From Gammaproteobacteria bacterium 28-57-27 (GTDB lineage: Bacteria > Pseudomonadota > Gammaproteobacteria > Halothiobacillales > Halothiobacillaceae), in assembly GCA_002281735.1 (NCBI GenBank), contig NCGK01000019.1:10777-74776 (forward strand): 64,000 nucleotides of DNA, read 5' to 3'. Of this stretch, positions 8,249 to 20,195 are shown piece by piece. The notes beneath the pieces were generated by a model that did no database searches, was not told where the DNA came from, and worked only from the letters and a program-made list of their open reading frames with translations. Position 1 is the stretch's first letter. Each line of letters opens with the position of its first letter. Position numbers and translations under genes: made by a program.

Positions 8249-9267
8249 ACATCAACCTGCTGTGTGAAGGCGACGTAGGCTTGCAGGGTATCCCAGGCTG
8301 CGCCGCTGGTTTGAATTTCAAGCGCCCGCGCCACGCCTTCGCGCAGTGTAGACGCAAGCCCGGCCAGATAAATCGCCGCGCCTGCATTAAATGCCACAAT
8401 ATCGCGTGCTGCCCCGGGTTGTCCGCTCAGAGCTTCCTGCACCTTGAGCAAGCTCTCCTGCGGCGAGGCTACACGCAAGCTATCGAGACTGGCCGAGAAC
8501 AAACCCACATCCTCAGGCCGCAGGCTGTAGTCACTAATGATGCCGTCTTTCAGCTCGCTCACCTGGGTCGGCGCGGCGATGCTGAATTCATCCAGCCCAT
8601 CGTCCGCATGGATCACCAACGCATGTTCACTGCCCAGCTGCAGCAATACTTCGGCCAAAGGCCTGCGCCAGCGCTCGCTGAATACGCCGAGCACCTGCCT
8701 CTTCGCCCCTGCCGGATTGGAAAGCGGCCCCAGCACATTGAACATCGTGCGCACGCCCAGTTCGCGCCGTGACGCATTCACATGGCGCATGGCACTGTGA
8801 TGCTGCGGGGCAAACATAAAGCCCACACCCAACTCGCACACCGCCTGCGCGATCCGCTCGAACGGCACATCCAGACGGCAACCCGCTGCCTCCAGAAGAT
8901 CGGCGCTCCCGCTCACGCTAGACATGGAACGACTGCCATGTTTAGCCACCTTGCCCCCGGCCGCGGCCAGTACAAAGCAGCTCGCGGTAGAAATATTGAA
9001 GGTATGCGCGCCATCGCCGCCGGTGCCGACAATATCCACCAATGGTGCGCAGGGAATCTCGACCTTGGCGGCAAACTCGCGCATTACCGAGGCGGCAGCG
9101 GCCACCTCCTCCACCGTTTCGCCCTTGACCCCCAACCCCATCAACAGCCCGCCGACTTGCGCGGATGTGGCCTCACCGCTCATCAGGGCGCGCATGACCT
9201 CAGTCATTTCCGCATGGGTCAGGTCGCGGCGCTCAAGCAAGGCGCGCAGTGCTACGGTCAGATTCAT
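8245..9267 (-). CDS. trpD: Anthranilate phosphoribosyltransferase
   Basis: DIVGTGGDG; FNIST; KHGSRS. Confidence 0.97.
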
Positions 9268-16202: not shown

Positions 16203-17360
16203 ATGCCCGCCCCCGCTTTGCATGACATGCTCGCCCGGCTGATTGCCATTCCCTCGGTCAGCAGTGTCAATCCGCGTTTCGATCAGGGCAACCGCGTGCT
16301 GATTGACGAGATCGCAGGCTGGATGGAGGCGGCGGGGTTTGCGGTGGAGATCGTGCCGCTGCCGGGGCGGCCAGACAAGGCGAATGTGATCGGCACGCTT
16401 GGCCGGGGTTCGGGCGGGCTGGTGCTGTCCGGGCATACCGATACCGTGCCTTGCGACCCGGAGTTGTGGCGCCATGATCCGTTTCAACTAACCGAAGCCG
16501 ATGGCCGTCTGTACGGGCTAGGCACCTCGGACATGAAGTCGTTTATCGCCCTTGCCTTGGAAGCCGCACGCGGCCTGAACGCCAGCGAGTTGAAGCAACC
16601 GCTGATTATTCTCGCCACGGCGGACGAGGAAAGTTCGATGGCGGGCGCGGAAGCCTTGGTCAAGCTGGGGCGACCCAAGGCGCGCCATGCAGTGATCGGC
16701 GAGCCGACCGGCCTCAAGCCGATTCGTATGCACAAGGGCGTGATGATGGAGGCGATCCGCATTCGCGGACGTTCCGGGCATTCCAGCGATGCCAGTCTGG
16801 GCGCGAGTGCGCTTGAGGGAATGCAGCAGGCTATGGGCGCGCTGCTCGACTTCCGCACCGAACTGCAAAGCTGCCACTGCAATCCGCTGTTTCATGTGCC
16901 CGTGCCGACCATGAACCTTGGCTACATCCACGGCGGCGACAACCCCAACCGCATCTGCGGGCATTGCGAGCTGCACATCGACGTGCGCCCGCTGCCCGGC
17001 ATGAATATGCTGGAACTGCGCGACATGCTGCGCGAGCGCTTGCAACAGGCCGTCACCCTGCCCGGCCTGAGCCTTACGCTCGAACCGCTGTTTCCCGGCA
17101 CCGCACCGATGGAAACCCCGCCGGATGCCGAACTGGTAAAAGTGACCGAACGCCTGACCGGCCACACAGCAGGCGCGGTAGCCTTCGGCACCGAAGCGCC
17201 CTATCTGCGTGAGCTGGGCATGGACGTGGTGGTGCTCGGCCCCGGCGACATTGCGCAGGCGCACCAGCCGGATGAATACCTCGCACTGGAGCGCATCCCG
17301 CCGACGATTGAACTGCTGCGTGGATTGATTCAGCGTTTTTGTCTGACGGCGGATGTGTGA
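16203..17360 (+). CDS. argE: Acetylornithine deacetylase
   Basis: LSGHTDTVP; GLGTSDMK; ADEE; GEPT; FGTEAP. Confidence 0.95.
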   Translation: MPAPALHDMLARLIAIPSVSSVNPRFDQGNRVLIDEIAGWMEAAGFAVEIVPLPGRPDKANVIGTLGRGSGGLVLSGHTDTVPCDPELWRHDPFQLTEADGRLYGLGTSDMKSFIALALEAARGLNASELKQPLIILATADEESSMAGAEALVKLGRPKARHAVIGEPTGLKPIRMHKGVMMEAIRIRGRSGHSSDASLGASALEGMQQAMGALLDFRTELQSCHCNPLFHVPVPTMNLGYIHGGDNPNRICGHCELHIDVRPLPGMNMLELRDMLRERLQQAVTLPGLSLTLEPLFPGTAPMETPPDAELVKVTERLTGHTAGAVAFGTEAPYLRELGMDVVVLGPGDIAQAHQPDEYLALERIPPTIELLRGLIQRFCLTADV

Positions 17361-17460
17361 GAGTAGGTTGATCGGCTTGCTGAATATCGTTAGGGCAACG
17401 CACAGCCACTAAGACGTTCATGCCAACATTTATCGGATAATTAACATTAGGTTGCTGAAC

Positions 17461-18006
17461 ATGGCTCCCGTGCCGGATTTTTGGATAGAACACAAAAAAC
17501 ACTTGCGTGGCTTCATTGCCAAACGAGTGCGGGAACCTGCTGCTGTTGACGACATTCTGCAAGATGTGTTCGTCAAGGCTTATACAAACCTGCACACAGT
17601 CAAGTCGCACGGTAGTCTCACCTCCTGGTTGTACCGCATTGCGGCGAATGCCATAGCCGATCACTACCGAGGGCAAAAACCCTCGGAAGAAATACCTGAC
17701 GAATGGCCGTCGCCCGAGCCAGAGCCCGATTACATCGCCGAGCTGGCATCGTGCCTTAAGCCGCTGATTGCCGACTTGCCCGAGACCTACCGGATGCCTC
17801 TTGTATGGTCGGAGATTGATGGGTTGGCACAAAAAGAAGTAGCAAGCCGTTTGGGGCTTTCCCTTTCCGGCGCGAAGTCGAGGGTGCAGCGTGGCCGCGA
17901 GAAATTGCGCCAGCGCTTGTTCGAATGTTGCGATATTGAGACTGGTCGACACGGCATCATTGGCTATGAAGTCCGCGACAGAAAGCGCGGCTGTGATTCT
18001 GGCTGA
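17461..18006 (+). CDS. sigZ: ECF sigma factor, SigZ type
   Basis: [10 protein letters not shown]; WLYRIAAN; [12 protein letters not shown]; C-terminal CCDIE. Confidence 0.85.
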
Positions 18007-18093
18007 TACAATTTTTGCGTCCTTTTCGCACAAACTCCGTCTATATGGGTACGGCGCAATAAGTGCCGCAACCCTGAAGAGCGGAGTAAATCC

Positions 18094-18888
18094 ATGAACG
18101 ACGTAAAACACGATGAAATTCGGCAAGCCGTGCGCCAGCAATACGGCCAAGTGGCGGAAAGCGAAAGCTGCGGCTGTGGTCCTGCCTGCTGCGGGGAAAC
18201 AACAACTAGCGCCGATGTGCTTTCACAGGCGCTGGGATATTCGGCAGACGAAACCGCCCTTGTCCCTGACGGTGCCAATATGGGACTGGGCTGTGGTAAC
18301 CCGCAAGCCATCGCTAACCTGAAGCCCGGCGAAACCGTGCTTGACCTTGGCAGCGGTGGTGGATTCGATTGCTTTCTTGCCGCAAGGCAAGTCGGCGATT
18401 CGGGTCATGTCATCGGCGTTGATATGACCCCGGCGATGGTTTCCAAAGCGCGAGCCAATGCAGATAAAGGCGGCTACCGAAATGTTGAGTTCCGGCTAGG
18501 AGAAATTGAAAACCTGCCCGTCGCTGACGCAACGGTGGATGCGATCATTTCCAACTGTGTCATCAACTTGTCGCCGGACAAGCCTCGTGTATTCGCCGAT
18601 GCCTACCGGGTCTTGAAATCGGGCGGCAGGCTGGCCATCTCGGATGTTGTGGCCTTTGACGAATTGCCCGACGATATCCGGAGCGATATGGCGCTATTCA
18701 CGGGCTGCATGGCGGGCGCATCGCTGATTACCGAGGTGGAGGACATGTTGAAAACGGCTGGTTTCCAACAGATTCGGGTTGCCCCCAAAGACGAGAGCAA
18801 GACTTTCATTCGTGATTGGGCACCCGGGAGCGCAGTGACGGACTATGTGGTTTCTGCAACCATCGAAGCCATAAAACCTGCAACCTAA
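18094..18888 (+). CDS. arsM: Arsenite S-adenosylmethionine methyltransferase
   Basis: CGCGPACCG; GLGCGNP; [10 protein letters not shown]; SNCVINLS; TGCMAGA. Confidence 0.92.
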
Positions 18889-18952
18889 CCCTGCAGTCCA
18901 CCGGACGCTATGCGATAAATGTCGCGCAGCGCCGGTGACTTCAACGTCAGCT
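18883..18952 (+). other. attC-like site (70 bp) overlapping the arsM stop
   Basis: ACCTAAC-CCTGC-AGTCCACCGG-CGCT...AGCG-CCGGTGACT-TCAAC-GTCAGCT; matching leading core GTTAGGG at 17389-17395. Confidence 0.75.
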
Positions 18953-19098
18953 GTTATGAACTGGCAGTTTCTTGAAGCATCCAGAGAAGGGCTGGCTCGA
19001 AGAGGACAACATCAGTAAAAACATAGACTTATGACTACTTTCCCACCCTCTCCCATGCTCTCCATATTAAGAGGGGAAACACCCCTTCTGCGTAAGGC

Positions 19099-19182
19099 CT
19101 AAGCCGCCAACTTCTCCGGCCTGACCACCGGCGGGTGCAGCGGATCGTAATCCGCCACCAGCTCGCCCTGGGCAATCAGCTT
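19099..19182 (-). pseudogene. Orphan 3' fragment of a second allele of the ABC ATPase gene
   Basis: Translates [27 protein letters not shown], versus [31 protein letters not shown] of the intact gene. Confidence 0.85.
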
Positions 19183-19196
19183 GTGATGGCAGAAGC

Positions 19197-19231
19197 AAAA
19201 AACAAAAACGCCGCGCATAAAGCGCGGCGTT
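19197..19231 (-). terminator. Intrinsic terminator of the ABC operon
   Basis: AACGCCGCGC-ATAAA-GCGCGGCGTT followed by T runs on the minus strand. Confidence 0.75.
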
Positions 19232-19248
19232 CAATCGTATGAGTTTTC

Positions 19249-19310
19249 GTAGGAGCCCCGTCTCGGGGCGATGGGTTTCACAGCCTATCGCCCCGAGACG
19301 GGGCTCCTAC
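19249..19310. repeat. GTAG-type REP doublet
   Basis: GTAGGAGCCCCGTCTCGGGGCGAT...ATCGCCCCGAGACGGGGCTCCTAC perfect 24-bp inverted repeat. Confidence 0.85.
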
Positions 19311-19319
19311 AAGCCTGAA

Positions 19320-20195
19320 TCAAGCCGCAAGCTTCAACGCTTCAGCCACAGGCCGAACCACTGGCGGATGTAGCGGGTCGTAATCGTCCGGCAGCTCGCC
19401 CTGGGCGATCAGCTTGGAGCGGCTGACCAGGAAGTCTACCAAGTGGTTGCGCACGGCGTAGAAATGCGGGTCGTGGTGAATCTCCTGACGTACACGCGGC
19501 TTGGGCAGCGGGTTTTCCACGATCTCGGCGATCTTGGCATACGGGCCGTTGGACATCAGCACGATCTTGTCGGCCAGCAGGATGGCCTCGTCCACATCGT
19601 GGGTAATCATGAACACCGTCTGGTGCGTGGCGGCGCAGATCTTCACCAGTTCGTCCTGAATCACGCCGCGCGTCAGCGCATCCAGTGCGCCGAAGGGCTC
19701 GTCCATCAGCAGCATCTTCGGTTCGATGGCGAAGGCGCGGGCGATACCGACGCGTTGCTTCATGCCGCCGGAAAGCTGGTGCGGCTTCTTGTCCGCCGCG
19801 TGACCGAGGCCGACCAGCTCAATGTACTTCATGCAGTGCTCGCGCACCTGCGCCTTGCTCCAGTCGTGCCAGCGCGAGCTGACGGCGAAGGCGACGTTCT
19901 CGATCACCGTCAGCCAGGGCATCAGCGCGTGGCTCTGGAACACCACGCCGCGATCCAGGCTCGGGCCTTTCACTTCGCGTCCATCCATGAAGACATTGCC
20001 ATCGGTGGCTTCATCCAGTCCGGCCAGCACATTAAGGATGGTGGACTTGCCGCAGCCGGAGTGGCCGATAATGCAGACGAATTCACCTTTTTCGAAACCG
20101 AAATGGATGTTTTCAAACACGGTGACATCTTGTGCGCCACCCGGCGAGGGAAAGACCTTTTTCAGTCCTTCAACCTTGAGGAAGGGCTGGTTCAT
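19320..20195 (-). CDS. Cyanate/nitrate-type ABC transporter ATP-binding protein (CynD/NrtD-like)
   Basis: GHSGCGKS; LSGGMKQR; [11 protein letters not shown]; start reset to ATG 20195. Confidence 0.93.

What the first reader, a model, noticed from the sequence alone, without database searches (positions are those of the whole stretch)
17389..18952. Two-gene sigZ-arsM arsenic cassette bounded by integron core sites, no integrase nearby
Seen: GTTAGGG at 17389, 28 bp after the argE stop; the arsM TAA lies within ACCTAAC, opening a 70-bp imperfect palindrome that ends GTCAGCT; the leading core matches the complement of ACCTAAC at 6 of 7 positions. Known: this is cassette architecture, and ArsM is usually ArsR-regulated. 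Inference: a cassette carrying its own ECF sigma factor was integrated at a secondary site, and the GTT-to-GTC change may have immobilised it.
Basis: partly seen in the sequence, partly recalled or inferred. Interest (0 to 1): 0.7.

Follow-up and report, generated by a model that had tools for sequence, protein, structure and literature searches.

The report
Stranded integron cassette: sigma factor plus arsM
A two-gene unit (a cysteine-rich ECF sigma factor, its own promoter and an arsenite methyltransferase) that sits in integron cassette arrays in other bacteria is here stranded alone, without an integrase, in a strain-variable slot next to argE; comparison of about 130 loci suggests this sigma factor family, not ArsR, switches on arsenic genes.

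Summary
Their weight differs.

**Right end: real.** The 70-bp palindrome (18883-18952) is an attC-type site. A covariance model built from 13 attC sites of unrelated genomes finds exactly these coordinates as the only significant hit in 64 kb (22.5 bits). Orthologous arsM genes end in the same ACCTAAC inside true cassette arrays in two other genomes.

**Left end: wrong.** GTTAGGG at 17389 is ancestral argE-flank DNA, shared with a cassette-free relative. The real boundary is ATTAGGT (17446-17452), 8 nt before the sigZ start codon.

**Context.**
- The window has no IntI, no second attC and no ArsR.
- Close relatives (ArgE 92-96% identical) carry other cargo in this slot.
- So this is an isolated cassette of the known SALIN kind.
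- Whether IntI inserted it here, and whether GTC immobilised it, is unproven.

**The more novel result is functional.**
- sigZ and arsM are adjacent in 69 of 129 scorable SigZ-family loci, in many phyla.
- A rigid bipartite ECF-type promoter (GCGTCCTT-N13-CGTCTA) precedes arsM in 60 of 65 loci (window 18017-18043).
- In other SigZ loci the same motif precedes ArsI/CadI and ArsP-like genes.
- SigZ belongs to the CorE-like, anti-sigma-free ECF238 group.
- I found no paper linking it to arsenic.

The parts
16203..17360 (+). argE (acetylornithine deacetylase). Conserved core gene forming the left flank; not part of the unit.
   Evidence: NF003474 548 bits against a cut-off of 460. Syntenic in relatives L247 and L249.
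17361..17407 (+). Ancestral argE-downstream DNA.
   Evidence: Aligned with cassette-free relative L249, including ATCGTTAGGGC. An X5 metagenome contig diverges at 17407.
17408..17445 (+). 39-nt junction DNA of unknown origin. Its last ~12 nt (CGGATAATTAAC) resemble the bases upstream of the core in L167 (CGGGATTTAAC).
   Evidence: No match in relatives or other loci. Alignment; L167 sequence.
17446..17452 (+). ATTAGGT, a degenerate left core. It stands where GTTAGGT (the R' of the preceding attC) stands in array copies. The cassette boundary is 17446|17447.
   Evidence: Same position holds GTTAGGT in L164 and L081, GTTAGGG in L161, GTCAGGT in L167 and GTTATGT in L252. DNA homology to other copies starts at 17441-17450 and at 17447 in an X3 contig.
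17461..18006 (+). sigZ: ECF sigma factor of the SigZ/ECF238 type, with conserved Cys98, Cys156 and Cys157 and a further Cys in the C-terminal tail. No anti-sigma gene is present. There is no room for a promoter between the cassette boundary and the ATG.
   Evidence: TIGR02959 190.5 bits against 168.65; NF007215 203.7 bits against 212. Sigma70_r2 and r4_2 domains. Cysteine conservation.
18017..18043 (+). Predicted SigZ-dependent promoter of arsM: -35-like GCGTCC(TTTT) at 18017-18026 and -10-like CGTCTA at 18038-18043.
   Evidence: GC[GA]TC[CT]TT-N13-CGTC occurs in 60 of 65 arsM upstream regions, with spacing exactly 13 in 57 of 60. Background is 0.014 per 160 nt. It is the only exact match in the window.
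18052..18068 (+). Conserved 6-bp stem-loop (CGGCGC aataa GTGCCG) just downstream of the -10 element; probably the 5' end of the arsM mRNA.
   Evidence: RNAalifold on 11 homologous spacers: 6 stem pairs, 4 of them with a compensatory change, almost none broken.
18094..18888 (+). arsM: As(III) S-adenosylmethionine methyltransferase. The cysteines at GCGNP (C67), SNCVINL (C155) and TGCMAG (C205), plus the N-terminal CGC/CC cluster, are all present.
   Evidence: NF008823 376.5 bits against 263. Methyltransf_31. Cysteine list.
18883..18952 (+). attC-type recombination site, degenerate.
- R'' ACCTAAC 18883-18889, containing the arsM stop.
- L'' GTCCACC 18896-18902, with one extra C (a G on the bottom strand).
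- Central hairpin.
- L' GGTGAC 18934-18939.
- R' GTCAGCT 18946-18952, which matches GTTRRRY at 5 of 7 positions.
   Evidence: CM R1: 22.5 bits, full-length match, + strand only. Homologous to the arsM attC sites of L164 (32.7 bits, canonical GTTAGGC) and L161 (21.2 bits).
18953..19099 (.). Non-coding DNA of unknown origin between the attC and the ATPase remnant.
   Evidence: No match in any fetched locus.
19100..19235 (-). Remnant of a second copy of the ABC-ATPase 3' end (19118-19183) with its terminator hairpin (19206-19232). It marks an earlier rearrangement of the slot.
   Evidence: 89% identical to the ATPase 3' end of L247, but only 83% to the window's own gene end. Terminator.

Best explanation
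sigZ-arsM is a self-contained, horizontally mobile arsenic-methylation module. One of its lineages circulates as a two-gene integron cassette.

The copy in the window is an isolated cassette with one decayed attC and no integrase (a SALIN). It is lodged in a strain-variable slot between argE and an ABC-transporter operon, in a gammaproteobacterium from mine-drainage and mine-tailings metagenomes.

**Proposed mechanism**
1. sigZ starts 8 nt after the cassette boundary and has no promoter of its own. It is therefore read from outside: by read-through from argE here, or from Pc in an integron. This step is inferred.
2. SigZ is an anti-sigma-free, CorE-like ECF238 sigma factor with a cysteine-rich tail. 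It recognises the conserved GCGTCCTT-N13-CGTCTA promoter in the sigZ-arsM spacer and transcribes arsM. This rests on comparative genomics, not on experiment.
3. SigZ activity is probably switched post-translationally through its cysteines by As(III), methyl-As(III) or a related thiol-reactive signal. This is inferred, with probability about 0.4.
4. ArsM then methylates As(III).

The module brings its own transcription specificity, so it works without the host's ArsR. The altered R' box (GTC, and only 5 of 7 R''/R' pairs) probably lowers or abolishes re-excision (inferred).
For: **Cassette origin**
- The independent attC model hits only 18883-18952(+).
- In L164 the unit lies between canonical attC sites, in an array of nine + strand sites. 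L167 is a second array.
- The left core is conserved in six copies.
- DNA homology to other copies is bounded by the core and the attC.

**Foreign to this locus**
- Relatives with ArgE 96% and 92% identical have other cargo in the slot.
- 80 more distant argE loci lack the unit.
- In a freshwater metagenome the flanks have depth about 200 and the cassette about 8-16.
- GC is 0.53-0.57 in the cassette against 0.62-0.65 in the flanks.
- SigZ homologues of 70-89% identity occur in Thiobacillus, Ferrigenium, Halothiobacillus, Syntrophales and Nitrospiraceae.

**No integrase, no ArsR:**

**Regulation**
- sigZ and arsM are adjacent in 69 of 129 determinable loci, and in 13 of 13 with SigZ at least 60% identical.
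- The promoter motif is present in 60 of 65 loci, in both gene orders.
- The same motif lies before sigZ itself, ArsI/CadI, ArsP-like permeases and divergent ArsM.
- SigZ belongs to ECF238 together with CorE2, which is activated by Cd/Zn through its cysteine-rich tail (PMC7826278, PMC8999054).
Against: - The R' box is GTCAGCT, not GTTRRRY. The CM score (22.5 bits) is at the low end of true attC sites (18-65 bits), and the model is my own, not IntegronFinder's.
- The left junction base is A, not G. The right junction G|TC does not fit the G|WT attG consensus (bioRxiv 10.1101/2022.09.11.507474).
- 39 nt on the left and 147 nt on the right are unexplained, and a duplicated ATPase end shows that other rearrangements took place.
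- Copies with 74-86% identical SigZ (L332-L334) have no attC, so the operon also moves or persists outside integrons.
- The cysteine pattern does not differ between ArsM-linked and unlinked SigZ proteins, so arsenic specificity of sensing is not shown.
- No transcript data were available.
- Only 64 kb of the genome was seen, so an intI elsewhere is possible.
Confidence: 0.72

Rival explanations
1. The unit did not enter this site by IntI. A fossil cassette, already immobile, arrived as a passenger on a larger fragment. It came by homologous or illegitimate recombination into a recombination-prone slot, or it is the last remnant of a decayed array.
For: - The slot between argE and the ABC operon holds different cargo in every relative.
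- A remnant of an L247-like ATPase 3' end with its terminator lies right of the unit.
- There is unexplained DNA on both sides.
- About 12 nt upstream of the core resemble the L167 copy. A clean attC x attG event would not carry these along.
- The junction bases do not fit G|WT.
- L161 and L252 share flank DNA beyond the core.
Against: - Homology to most other copies stops within a few bases of the canonical recombination point, 17446|17447.
- No other attC, even a partial one, is detected in the slot or in the relatives' slots.
- Isolated cassettes made by IntI at genomic sites are common and have been shown experimentally (bioRxiv 10.1101/2022.09.11.507474).
Confidence: 0.35
2. The palindrome is only a transcription terminator or REP-like hairpin and the 'core sites' are chance. 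On this reading sigZ-arsM is an ordinary operon with no integron history.
For: - The hairpin lies just after a stop codon.
- GTTRRRY-type heptamers are no more frequent than chance.
- Several related copies lack any attC.
Against: - No T-run follows the hairpin, and no + strand terminator is called there.
- The full-length match to the independent attC model is strand-specific.
- It has the same R''-spacer-GTC(C/A)ACCGGAC architecture as the canonical attC after arsM in L164, which lies in a nine-site array.
Confidence: 0.05
3. SigZ and arsM are merely co-transferred neighbours. On this reading the conserved motif is an operator for another regulator, or SigZ answers a non-arsenic signal (Cu/Cd/Zn or thiol or redox stress, as for CorE and CorE2), with ArsM as one of several outputs.
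For: - The cysteine pattern is family-wide and is not specific to ArsM-linked members.
- The characterised ECF238 members sense Cu, Cd and Zn (PMC8999054, PMC6851896).
- ArsI/CadI-family and SO_0444/SaoE-like permease targets are also linked to Cd, Cu and Zn.
- 60 of 129 loci have no adjacent ArsM.
Against: - The motif has ECF geometry: two boxes, rigid spacing, CGTC as the -10.
- It lies upstream of sigZ itself where arsM is not in between, which is classic ECF autoregulation.
- ArsM is by far the commonest neighbour.
Confidence: 0.2

Closest known systems
[quoted passage not shown] These are isolated integron cassettes, which IntI can produce at genomic attG (5'-GWT-3') or 'secondary' sites (bioRxiv 10.1101/2022.09.11.507474; IntegronFinder 2.0, PMC9024848).
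   Same: - One attC at the 3' end of a coding unit.
- No intI and no other attC nearby.
- The unit is expressed from an outside promoter.
- The same cassette is found inside arrays elsewhere.
   Different: - It holds two genes with an internal promoter.
- The R' box carries GTC.
- The junction bases do not match G|WT.
- Extra unexplained DNA and a duplicated gene end flank it, so the insertion route is not proven.
Integron gene cassettes that carry their own expression signals (toxin-antitoxin cassettes and other promoter-bearing cassettes of chromosomal integrons).
   Same: A multi-gene cassette with an internal promoter, lying in arrays alongside toxin-antitoxin and glyoxalase cassettes (L164, L167).
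   Different: The internal promoter is served by a sigma factor encoded in the same cassette. I know of no described cassette that brings its own sigma factor; this rests on my own knowledge and is not an exhaustive check.
CorE and CorE2 of Myxococcus xanthus, and B. subtilis SigZ (ECF238; formerly ECF44 and ECF24).
   Same: - Sigma-2 plus sigma-4 domains.
- A short cysteine-rich C-terminal extension and a cysteine in the linker.
- No anti-sigma factor.
- The gene is not, or only partly, autoregulated.
- Its neighbours are metal-related.
   Different: - The linker has a single Cys98 (SCL), not the CxC hallmark of ECF44.
- The conserved target is arsM, or arsI/arsP-like genes, rather than Cu/Cd/Zn efflux genes.
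- The inducer is unknown.
ArsR-controlled ars and arsM operons.
   Same: The output is an arsenic-detoxifying ArsM with the canonical cysteines.
   Different: - No ArsR lies in the unit or in the window.
- Control is predicted to be positive, through a dedicated sigma factor, instead of repression and derepression.
- L161 has an arsR plus methyltransferase pair just upstream of the unit, so both systems can coexist.

Membership tests
Integron attC site / gene cassette | 5' R'' box RYYYAAC, with the ORF ending at or just before it | tested here: met
   ACCTAAC at 18883-18889 contains the arsM TAA. L161, L164 and L252 have the same arrangement.
Integron attC site / gene cassette | 3' R' box GTTRRRY, including the conserved GTT (bottom-strand AAC) cleavage triplet | tested here: not met
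   GTCAGCT at 18946-18952 matches 5 of 7 positions. GTT is changed to GTC and position 6 is C. In the CM alignment, two of the seven R''/R' pairs are non-standard.
Integron attC site / gene cassette | Imperfect palindrome with L''/L' boxes, an unpaired spacer and an extrahelical base; scored by a covariance model | tested here: met
   - CM R1, trained on 13 attC sites from unrelated genomes, gives a full-length match of 22.5 bits, E about 0.002, + strand only.
- L'' GTC(C)ACC against L' GGTGAC leaves one extra top-strand C.
- The control maximum is 19.1 bits in 1.13 Mb.
- IntegronFinder's own model was not available.
Integron attC site / gene cassette | The same unit occurs as a cassette in attC arrays | tested here: met
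   - L164: attC-sigZ-arsM-attC within nine + strand sites.
- L167: four attC-like sites upstream of the unit and one after it.
Integron attC site / gene cassette | Recombined by an integron integrase | not testable with these tools
   Needs an excision or integration assay.
Complete integron | intI gene with attI and Pc next to the cassette(s) | tested here: not met
   tblastn with IntI1 finds nothing in the 64-kb window at E <= 1e-3. The same query finds 44-66% identical IntI genes in the harvested attC loci.
SALIN (single attC lacking integrase) | One attC, with no other attC and no intI nearby | tested here: met
   A single CM hit in the whole window and no IntI. The rest of the genome was not seen.
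ECF sigma factor, SigZ / ECF238 | Sigma-70 regions 2 and 4 only; match to the SigZ equivalog models | tested here: met
   PF04542 and PF08281. TIGR02959 scores 190.5 bits against a cut-off of 168.65. NF007215 scores 203.7 bits, just under its cut-off of 212.
ECF sigma factor, SigZ / ECF238 | Short cysteine-rich C-terminal extension and no cognate anti-sigma factor | tested here: met
   C156 and C157 are invariant or nearly so, and a further Cys lies in the tail. There is no additional ORF in the unit.
CorE-like sigma factors (former ECF44) | CxC motif in the sigma-2/sigma-4 linker | tested here: not met
   The linker has a single conserved Cys98 (ELASCLKP). PMC8999054 states that CxC is confined to former ECF44 members.
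CorE-like sigma factors (former ECF44) | Activity switched by direct metal binding | not testable with these tools
   Needs biochemistry.
ArsM (As(III) SAM methyltransferase) | Family HMM above its cut-off; conserved As(III)-binding cysteines | tested here: met
   NF008823 scores 376.5 bits against 263. Cysteines are present at GCGNP, SNCVINL and TGCMAG, plus the N-terminal cluster. Their functional assignment rests on my own knowledge of CmArsM.
ArsR-regulated ars operon | ArsR/SmtB repressor gene in or beside the operon | tested here: not met
   The ArsR of L161 has no match in the window (best E = 1.1).

The most novel reading that the evidence does not exclude
SigZ-type ECF238 sigma factors are one-protein arsenic sensors. 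As(III) or methyl-As(III) binds the conserved thiols (Cys98, Cys156, Cys157 and the tail Cys) and switches the sigma factor on. It then fires a family-wide GCGTCC-N-CGTCTA promoter in front of arsM, arsI, arsP-like and related genes.

Packed with its promoter and arsM into a single integron cassette, this gives a host-independent, inducible arsenic-methylation unit that integrons can pass between phyla. It would also assign a function to the long-orphan SigZ family.
Probability: 0.35. Interest if true: 0.8.

Novelty: new variant of a known kind. Interest (0 to 1): 0.62.

Why it matters
**If the regulatory reading holds**
- Arsenic methylation in many environmental bacteria is governed by a dedicated sigma factor rather than by ArsR. 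These include bacteria of mine drainage, sediments and wastewater, and Verrucomicrobia including an Akkermansia muciniphila MAG.
- This changes how arsM expression should be predicted from metagenomes.
- It gives the first candidate regulon and promoter for the SigZ branch of ECF238.

**For integron biology**
- It is an example of a cassette that carries its own transcription specificity.
- The same unit is seen at three stages of one route: inside arrays, with a decaying attC, and fully domesticated without an attC.

**What is ordinary**
- The cassette-stranding itself belongs to a kind already described (SALIN).

Tried and rejected
- **Single-protein locus search.** The search for related loci with the SigZ protein alone returned almost only unrelated ECF genes. 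I repeated it with an alignment.
- **Strict attC heuristics.** Regular-expression and folding heuristics found true sites only in L164. This showed a low false-positive rate but gave too few sites for a model. I therefore harvested sites from a GCCTAAC...GTTAGGC genome scan.
- **Alignment of all harvested sites.** MAFFT on 34 attC sites misaligned the 3' arms (A3). I used the 13 shortest sites instead (A4). I did not build a second model from A5, because A5 also contains reverse-strand hits.
- **L247's slot.** It is not a cassette array.
- **L429.** It is an arsM found by chance in an attC-scan locus and has no attC after it.
- **Cysteine comparison.** Comparing ArsM-linked and unlinked SigZ proteins showed no difference.
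- **Plasmids.** No PLSDB plasmid carries the two-gene unit.
- **Literature.** Searches for SigZ or ECF together with arsM or arsenic gave nothing relevant. The supplement of the ECF reclassification paper, which may list ECF238 gene neighbourhoods, is not held.
- **Not done.** I did not predict the SigZ structure, because the tool returns no coordinates from which to measure Cys-Cys distances.
Full report
**1. What is in the sequence**

The region holds three genes on the + strand:
- argE (16203-17360): NF003474, 548 bits.
- An ECF sigma factor (ATG 17461 to 18006) that matches the SigZ equivalog TIGR02959 at 190.5 bits against a cut-off of 168.65. It scores 203.7 bits on NF007215, just under that model's cut-off of 212.
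- arsM (18094-18888): NF008823, 376.5 bits against 263.

- GTTAGGG at 17389-17395.
- ACCTAAC at 18883-18889, enclosing the arsM TAA.
- GTCAGCT at 18946-18952.

The stretch after arsM folds into a hairpin (-18.7 kcal/mol, z = -3.4).

**2. Is the 3' palindrome an attC site?**

I built an independent test.
- A genome-wide scan for GCCTAAC-N40-70-GTTAGGC gave 120 loci.
- From these I harvested oriented sites that end an ORF and fold.
- Several of those loci carry IntI genes 44-66% identical to IntI1, so they are real integrons.
- Thirteen short sites from unrelated genomes, none linked to arsM, were aligned (A4) and turned into covariance model R1.

Results with R1:

| Sequence searched | Result | Call |
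|---|---|---|
| Known arrays | Hundreds of sites at 18-65 bits | 59 |
| L164, which was not in the training set | Nine sites, all on the strand of the cassette genes | 59 |
| The 64-kb window | One significant hit, 18883-18952 (+), full length, 22.5 bits, E about 0.002.
| Window 16500-20000, filters off | Next best hit 7 bits | 78 |
| 1.13 Mb of unrelated control loci | Best hit 19.1 bits | 61 |

The anatomy of the window site is canonical except for R':
- R'' ACCTAAC.
- A 6-nt spacer.
- L'' GTC(C)ACC, with one extra top-strand base.
- The central hairpin.
- L' GGTGAC.
- A 6-nt spacer.
- R' GTCAGCT, which matches GTTRRRY at 5 of 7 positions and pairs with R'' at 5 of 7.

**3. Is the unit a cassette elsewhere?** Yes.

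*Halothiobacillus diazotrophicus (L164; SigZ 74%, ArsM 77% identical).*
- The preceding attC ends GTTAGGT, 13 nt before the sigZ ATG.
- arsM ends inside ACCTAAC, the R'' of a clean attC that ends GTTAGGC.
- Single-gene cassettes follow, each with its own attC: glyoxalase, DUF3024 and BrnT/CopG. A SnoaL gene follows the last recognisable site.

*A gammaproteobacterial MAG (L167).*
- The unit follows an HNH cassette, a toxin-antitoxin cassette and small-protein cassettes, each with an attC-like site.
- The unit is itself bounded by GTCAGGT ... ACCTAGC ... GTCAGGT.

*Decaying sites.* Thiobacillus (L161) and Sterolibacterium (L252) copies keep ACCTAAC plus the hairpin but have decaying R' boxes (GTTGACG, GTGGCCA).

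*No attC at all.* L332-L334 (SigZ 74-86% identical) have none.

The same operon is therefore seen in arrays, with fossil sites, and fully domesticated.

**4. Where is the left end?**

- It violates GTTRRRY at position 7.
- The consensus heptamer occurs 79 times in the window against 93 +/- 9 expected.
- The sequence ATCGTTAGGGC is present downstream of argE in L249 (ArgE 92% identical), which has no sigZ-arsM. Homology with L249 runs to 17407.
- A hot-spring metagenome contig diverges at the same base.

In six independent copies the conserved unit begins with [G/A]T[T/C]A[G/T]G[T/G]T.CT.A, 7-13 nt before the sigZ ATG. In the window this is ATTAGGT at 17446-17452.
- BLAST homology to other copies starts at 17441-17450 and ends at 18889-18906.
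- One freshwater metagenome contig starts matching exactly at 17447, the canonical G|TT crossover point.

**5. Is the unit vertically inherited next to argE?** No.
- None of 80 argE loci from other Gammaproteobacteria has sigZ or arsM within the 6 kb of flank fetched on either side of argE.
- The closest relative, L247 (ArgE 96% identical), has the same trpE-gph-rpe-cytochrome c-argE ... ABC transporter frame. Its slot holds BrnT/BrnA, small ORFs, MqsRA and a deacetylase.
- L249, L250 and L251 differ again.
- In a freshwater metagenome the flanks have depth about 200 and the cassette about 8-16.
- The cassette has GC 0.53-0.57, the flanks 0.62-0.65.
- SigZ homologues of 70-89% identity occur in Beta-, Gamma- and Deltaproteobacteria and in Nitrospirae. 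The best ArgE match among the species-representative genomes searched is only 67% identical.

**6. Integrase, other attC sites, ArsR.** None is present in the 64 kb. This fits the published category SALIN. 3400 SALINs were reported in 21,105 complete genomes, and IntI can produce them at 5'-GWT-3' genomic sites (bioRxiv 10.1101/2022.09.11.507474).

**7. How did it get here?** This is uncertain.

For a direct IntI event:
- The boundaries are sharp.
- There is a single attC.
- The right core looks like a hybrid.

Against a clean event:
- The left junction is A|TT and the right junction is G|TC.
- 17408-17445 and 18953-19099 are of unknown origin.
- About 12 nt upstream of the core resemble L167.
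- A remnant of an L247-like ATPase 3' end with its terminator lies at 19100-19235. This shows recombination in the slot.

I give about 0.45 to insertion by IntI in this lineage. I give about 0.35 to arrival of an already fossil cassette on a larger fragment, or to later rearrangement.

GTC in R' is also present at both ends of the L167 copy and at the last site of the L164 array. It therefore need not be a local mutation, and its effect on mobility is untested.

**8. What the unit does**

*Adjacency.* SigZ-family loci were sampled from genomes and metagenomes.
- arsM lies next to sigZ in 69 of 129 loci that could be scored: 48 as sigZ then arsM, 21 as arsM then sigZ.
- In all 13 scorable loci with SigZ at least 60% identical, arsM lies downstream.
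- The phyla include Proteobacteria, Verrucomicrobia (including an Akkermansia muciniphila MAG), Chloroflexi, Firmicutes, Bacteroidetes, Acidobacteria and Lentisphaerae.

*Promoter motif.*
- In 60 of 65 distinct arsM upstream regions there is a bipartite motif, GC[GA]TC[CT]TT-N13-CGTC. The consensus is GCGTCCTTTT-N8-ctCCGTCTatA.
- The spacing is exactly 13 nt in 57 of 60. The background is 0.014 per 160 nt.
- The motif lies in the sigZ-arsM spacer in one gene order and upstream of arsM-sigZ in the other.
- The window has one exact copy, at 18017-18041.
- A small stem-loop supported by covariation follows it (18052-18068).

*SigZ loci without a neighbouring arsM.* The same motif precedes:
- sigZ itself;
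- ArsI/CadI-family enzymes (153 bits against a cut-off of 116);
- ArsP/SaoE-like permeases;
- DF-family proteins;
- divergent ArsM.

This is the geometry and behaviour of an ECF promoter and regulon.

*No internal sigZ promoter.* sigZ starts 8 nt after the cassette boundary. No sigma-70-like promoter and no terminator separates it from argE. It is therefore probably read from outside.

*Family context.*
- SigZ is classified in ECF238 with CorE2. That group lacks anti-sigma factors and is thought to be switched through a cysteine-rich C-terminal tail (PMC7826278, PMC8999054, PMC6851896).
- Here C157 is invariant, C156 nearly so, and C98 is conserved in about two thirds of the family.
- The ECF44 CxC linker motif is absent.
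- The cysteines do not distinguish ArsM-linked members, so arsenic sensing by SigZ remains an inference.

**9. Comparison with what is known, and novelty**

- The stranded cassette is a member of a known kind (SALIN).
- A cassette that carries a sigma factor together with that factor's promoter and target gene is unusual. It realises in one element two routes to expression of transferred genes that PMC9045368 lists as alternatives: recombination into an integron, and travelling with a sigma factor.
- No paper in the searchable library links SigZ or any ECF sigma factor with arsM. The supplement of the ECF reclassification paper could not be checked.
- I therefore rate the whole as a new variant of a known kind.

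**10. Verdict**

| Question | Verdict |
|---|---|
| Observation | Partly confirmed: right end real, left end misplaced |

| Claim | Confidence |
|---|---|
| The unit is cassette-derived | about 0.9 |
| SigZ drives arsM from the conserved promoter | about 0.85 |
| IntI inserted the unit at this site | about 0.45 |
| SigZ senses arsenic directly | about 0.35-0.4 |

Noticed in passing
window 19100-19235: A second, partial copy of the 3' end of the ABC-transporter ATPase gene (19118-19183) with a strong terminator hairpin (19206-19232, minus strand). It is 89% identical to the gene end of relative L247 but only 83% to the window's own gene end at 19320-19416. It looks like the scar of an earlier replacement of the slot's content.
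   Followed up: partly
window 19248-19309: A perfect 24-nt inverted repeat (GTAGGAGCCCCGTCTCGGGGCGAT ... ATCGCCCCGAGACGGGGCTCCTAC) with a 14-nt loop, between the old terminator and the ATPase stop. The arm sequence occurs nowhere else in the window. A relative's contig lacks it (X5 loose end at 19317).
   Followed up: partly
window 18052-18068 and homologous spacers: A conserved 6-bp stem-loop right after the predicted -10 of the arsM promoter, with compensatory changes in 4 of 6 pairs across 11 loci. It may be a 5' mRNA stabiliser or a regulatory hairpin.
   Followed up: partly
L208, L225, L236, L242, L240, L264, L292, L302, L182, L184 and others: In SigZ loci without a neighbouring arsM, the same GCGTCC-N-CGTC motif precedes ArsI/CadI-family VOC enzymes, ArsP/SaoE-like permeases, DF-family (DUF2703-like) proteins, a PatB C-S lyase and sigZ itself. 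This is a candidate family-wide regulon.
   Followed up: partly
L164 3391-3486 and 4894-4989: An IS3-family transposase gene sits inside the Halothiobacillus cassette array, between two nearly identical 96-nt attC copies. The attC together with about 80 nt upstream of it recurs at 8735-8912, where the R' is GTCAGAC.
   Followed up: no
L161-L163 (Thiobacillus), upstream of sigZ: An arsR (HTH_5) gene plus a 200-aa methyltransferase, and in some contigs a SHOCT gene, lie directly upstream of the sigZ-arsM unit. ArsR-type and SigZ-type control therefore coexist in one locus.
   Followed up: no
L247 4507-9487; L249 7159-8092: The argE-to-ABC-transporter slot is a strain-variable islet. In the closest relative it holds BrnT/BrnA, MqsR/MqsA, AT-rich small ORFs and a histone-deacetylase-family gene. 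In the next relative it holds a 230-aa hypothetical protein followed by kdpDE.
   Followed up: partly
window (whole); runs X1, X2: Sequence identical to the window occurs in mine-drainage and mine-tailings metagenomes. Arsenic exposure is plausible in such settings.
   Followed up: no
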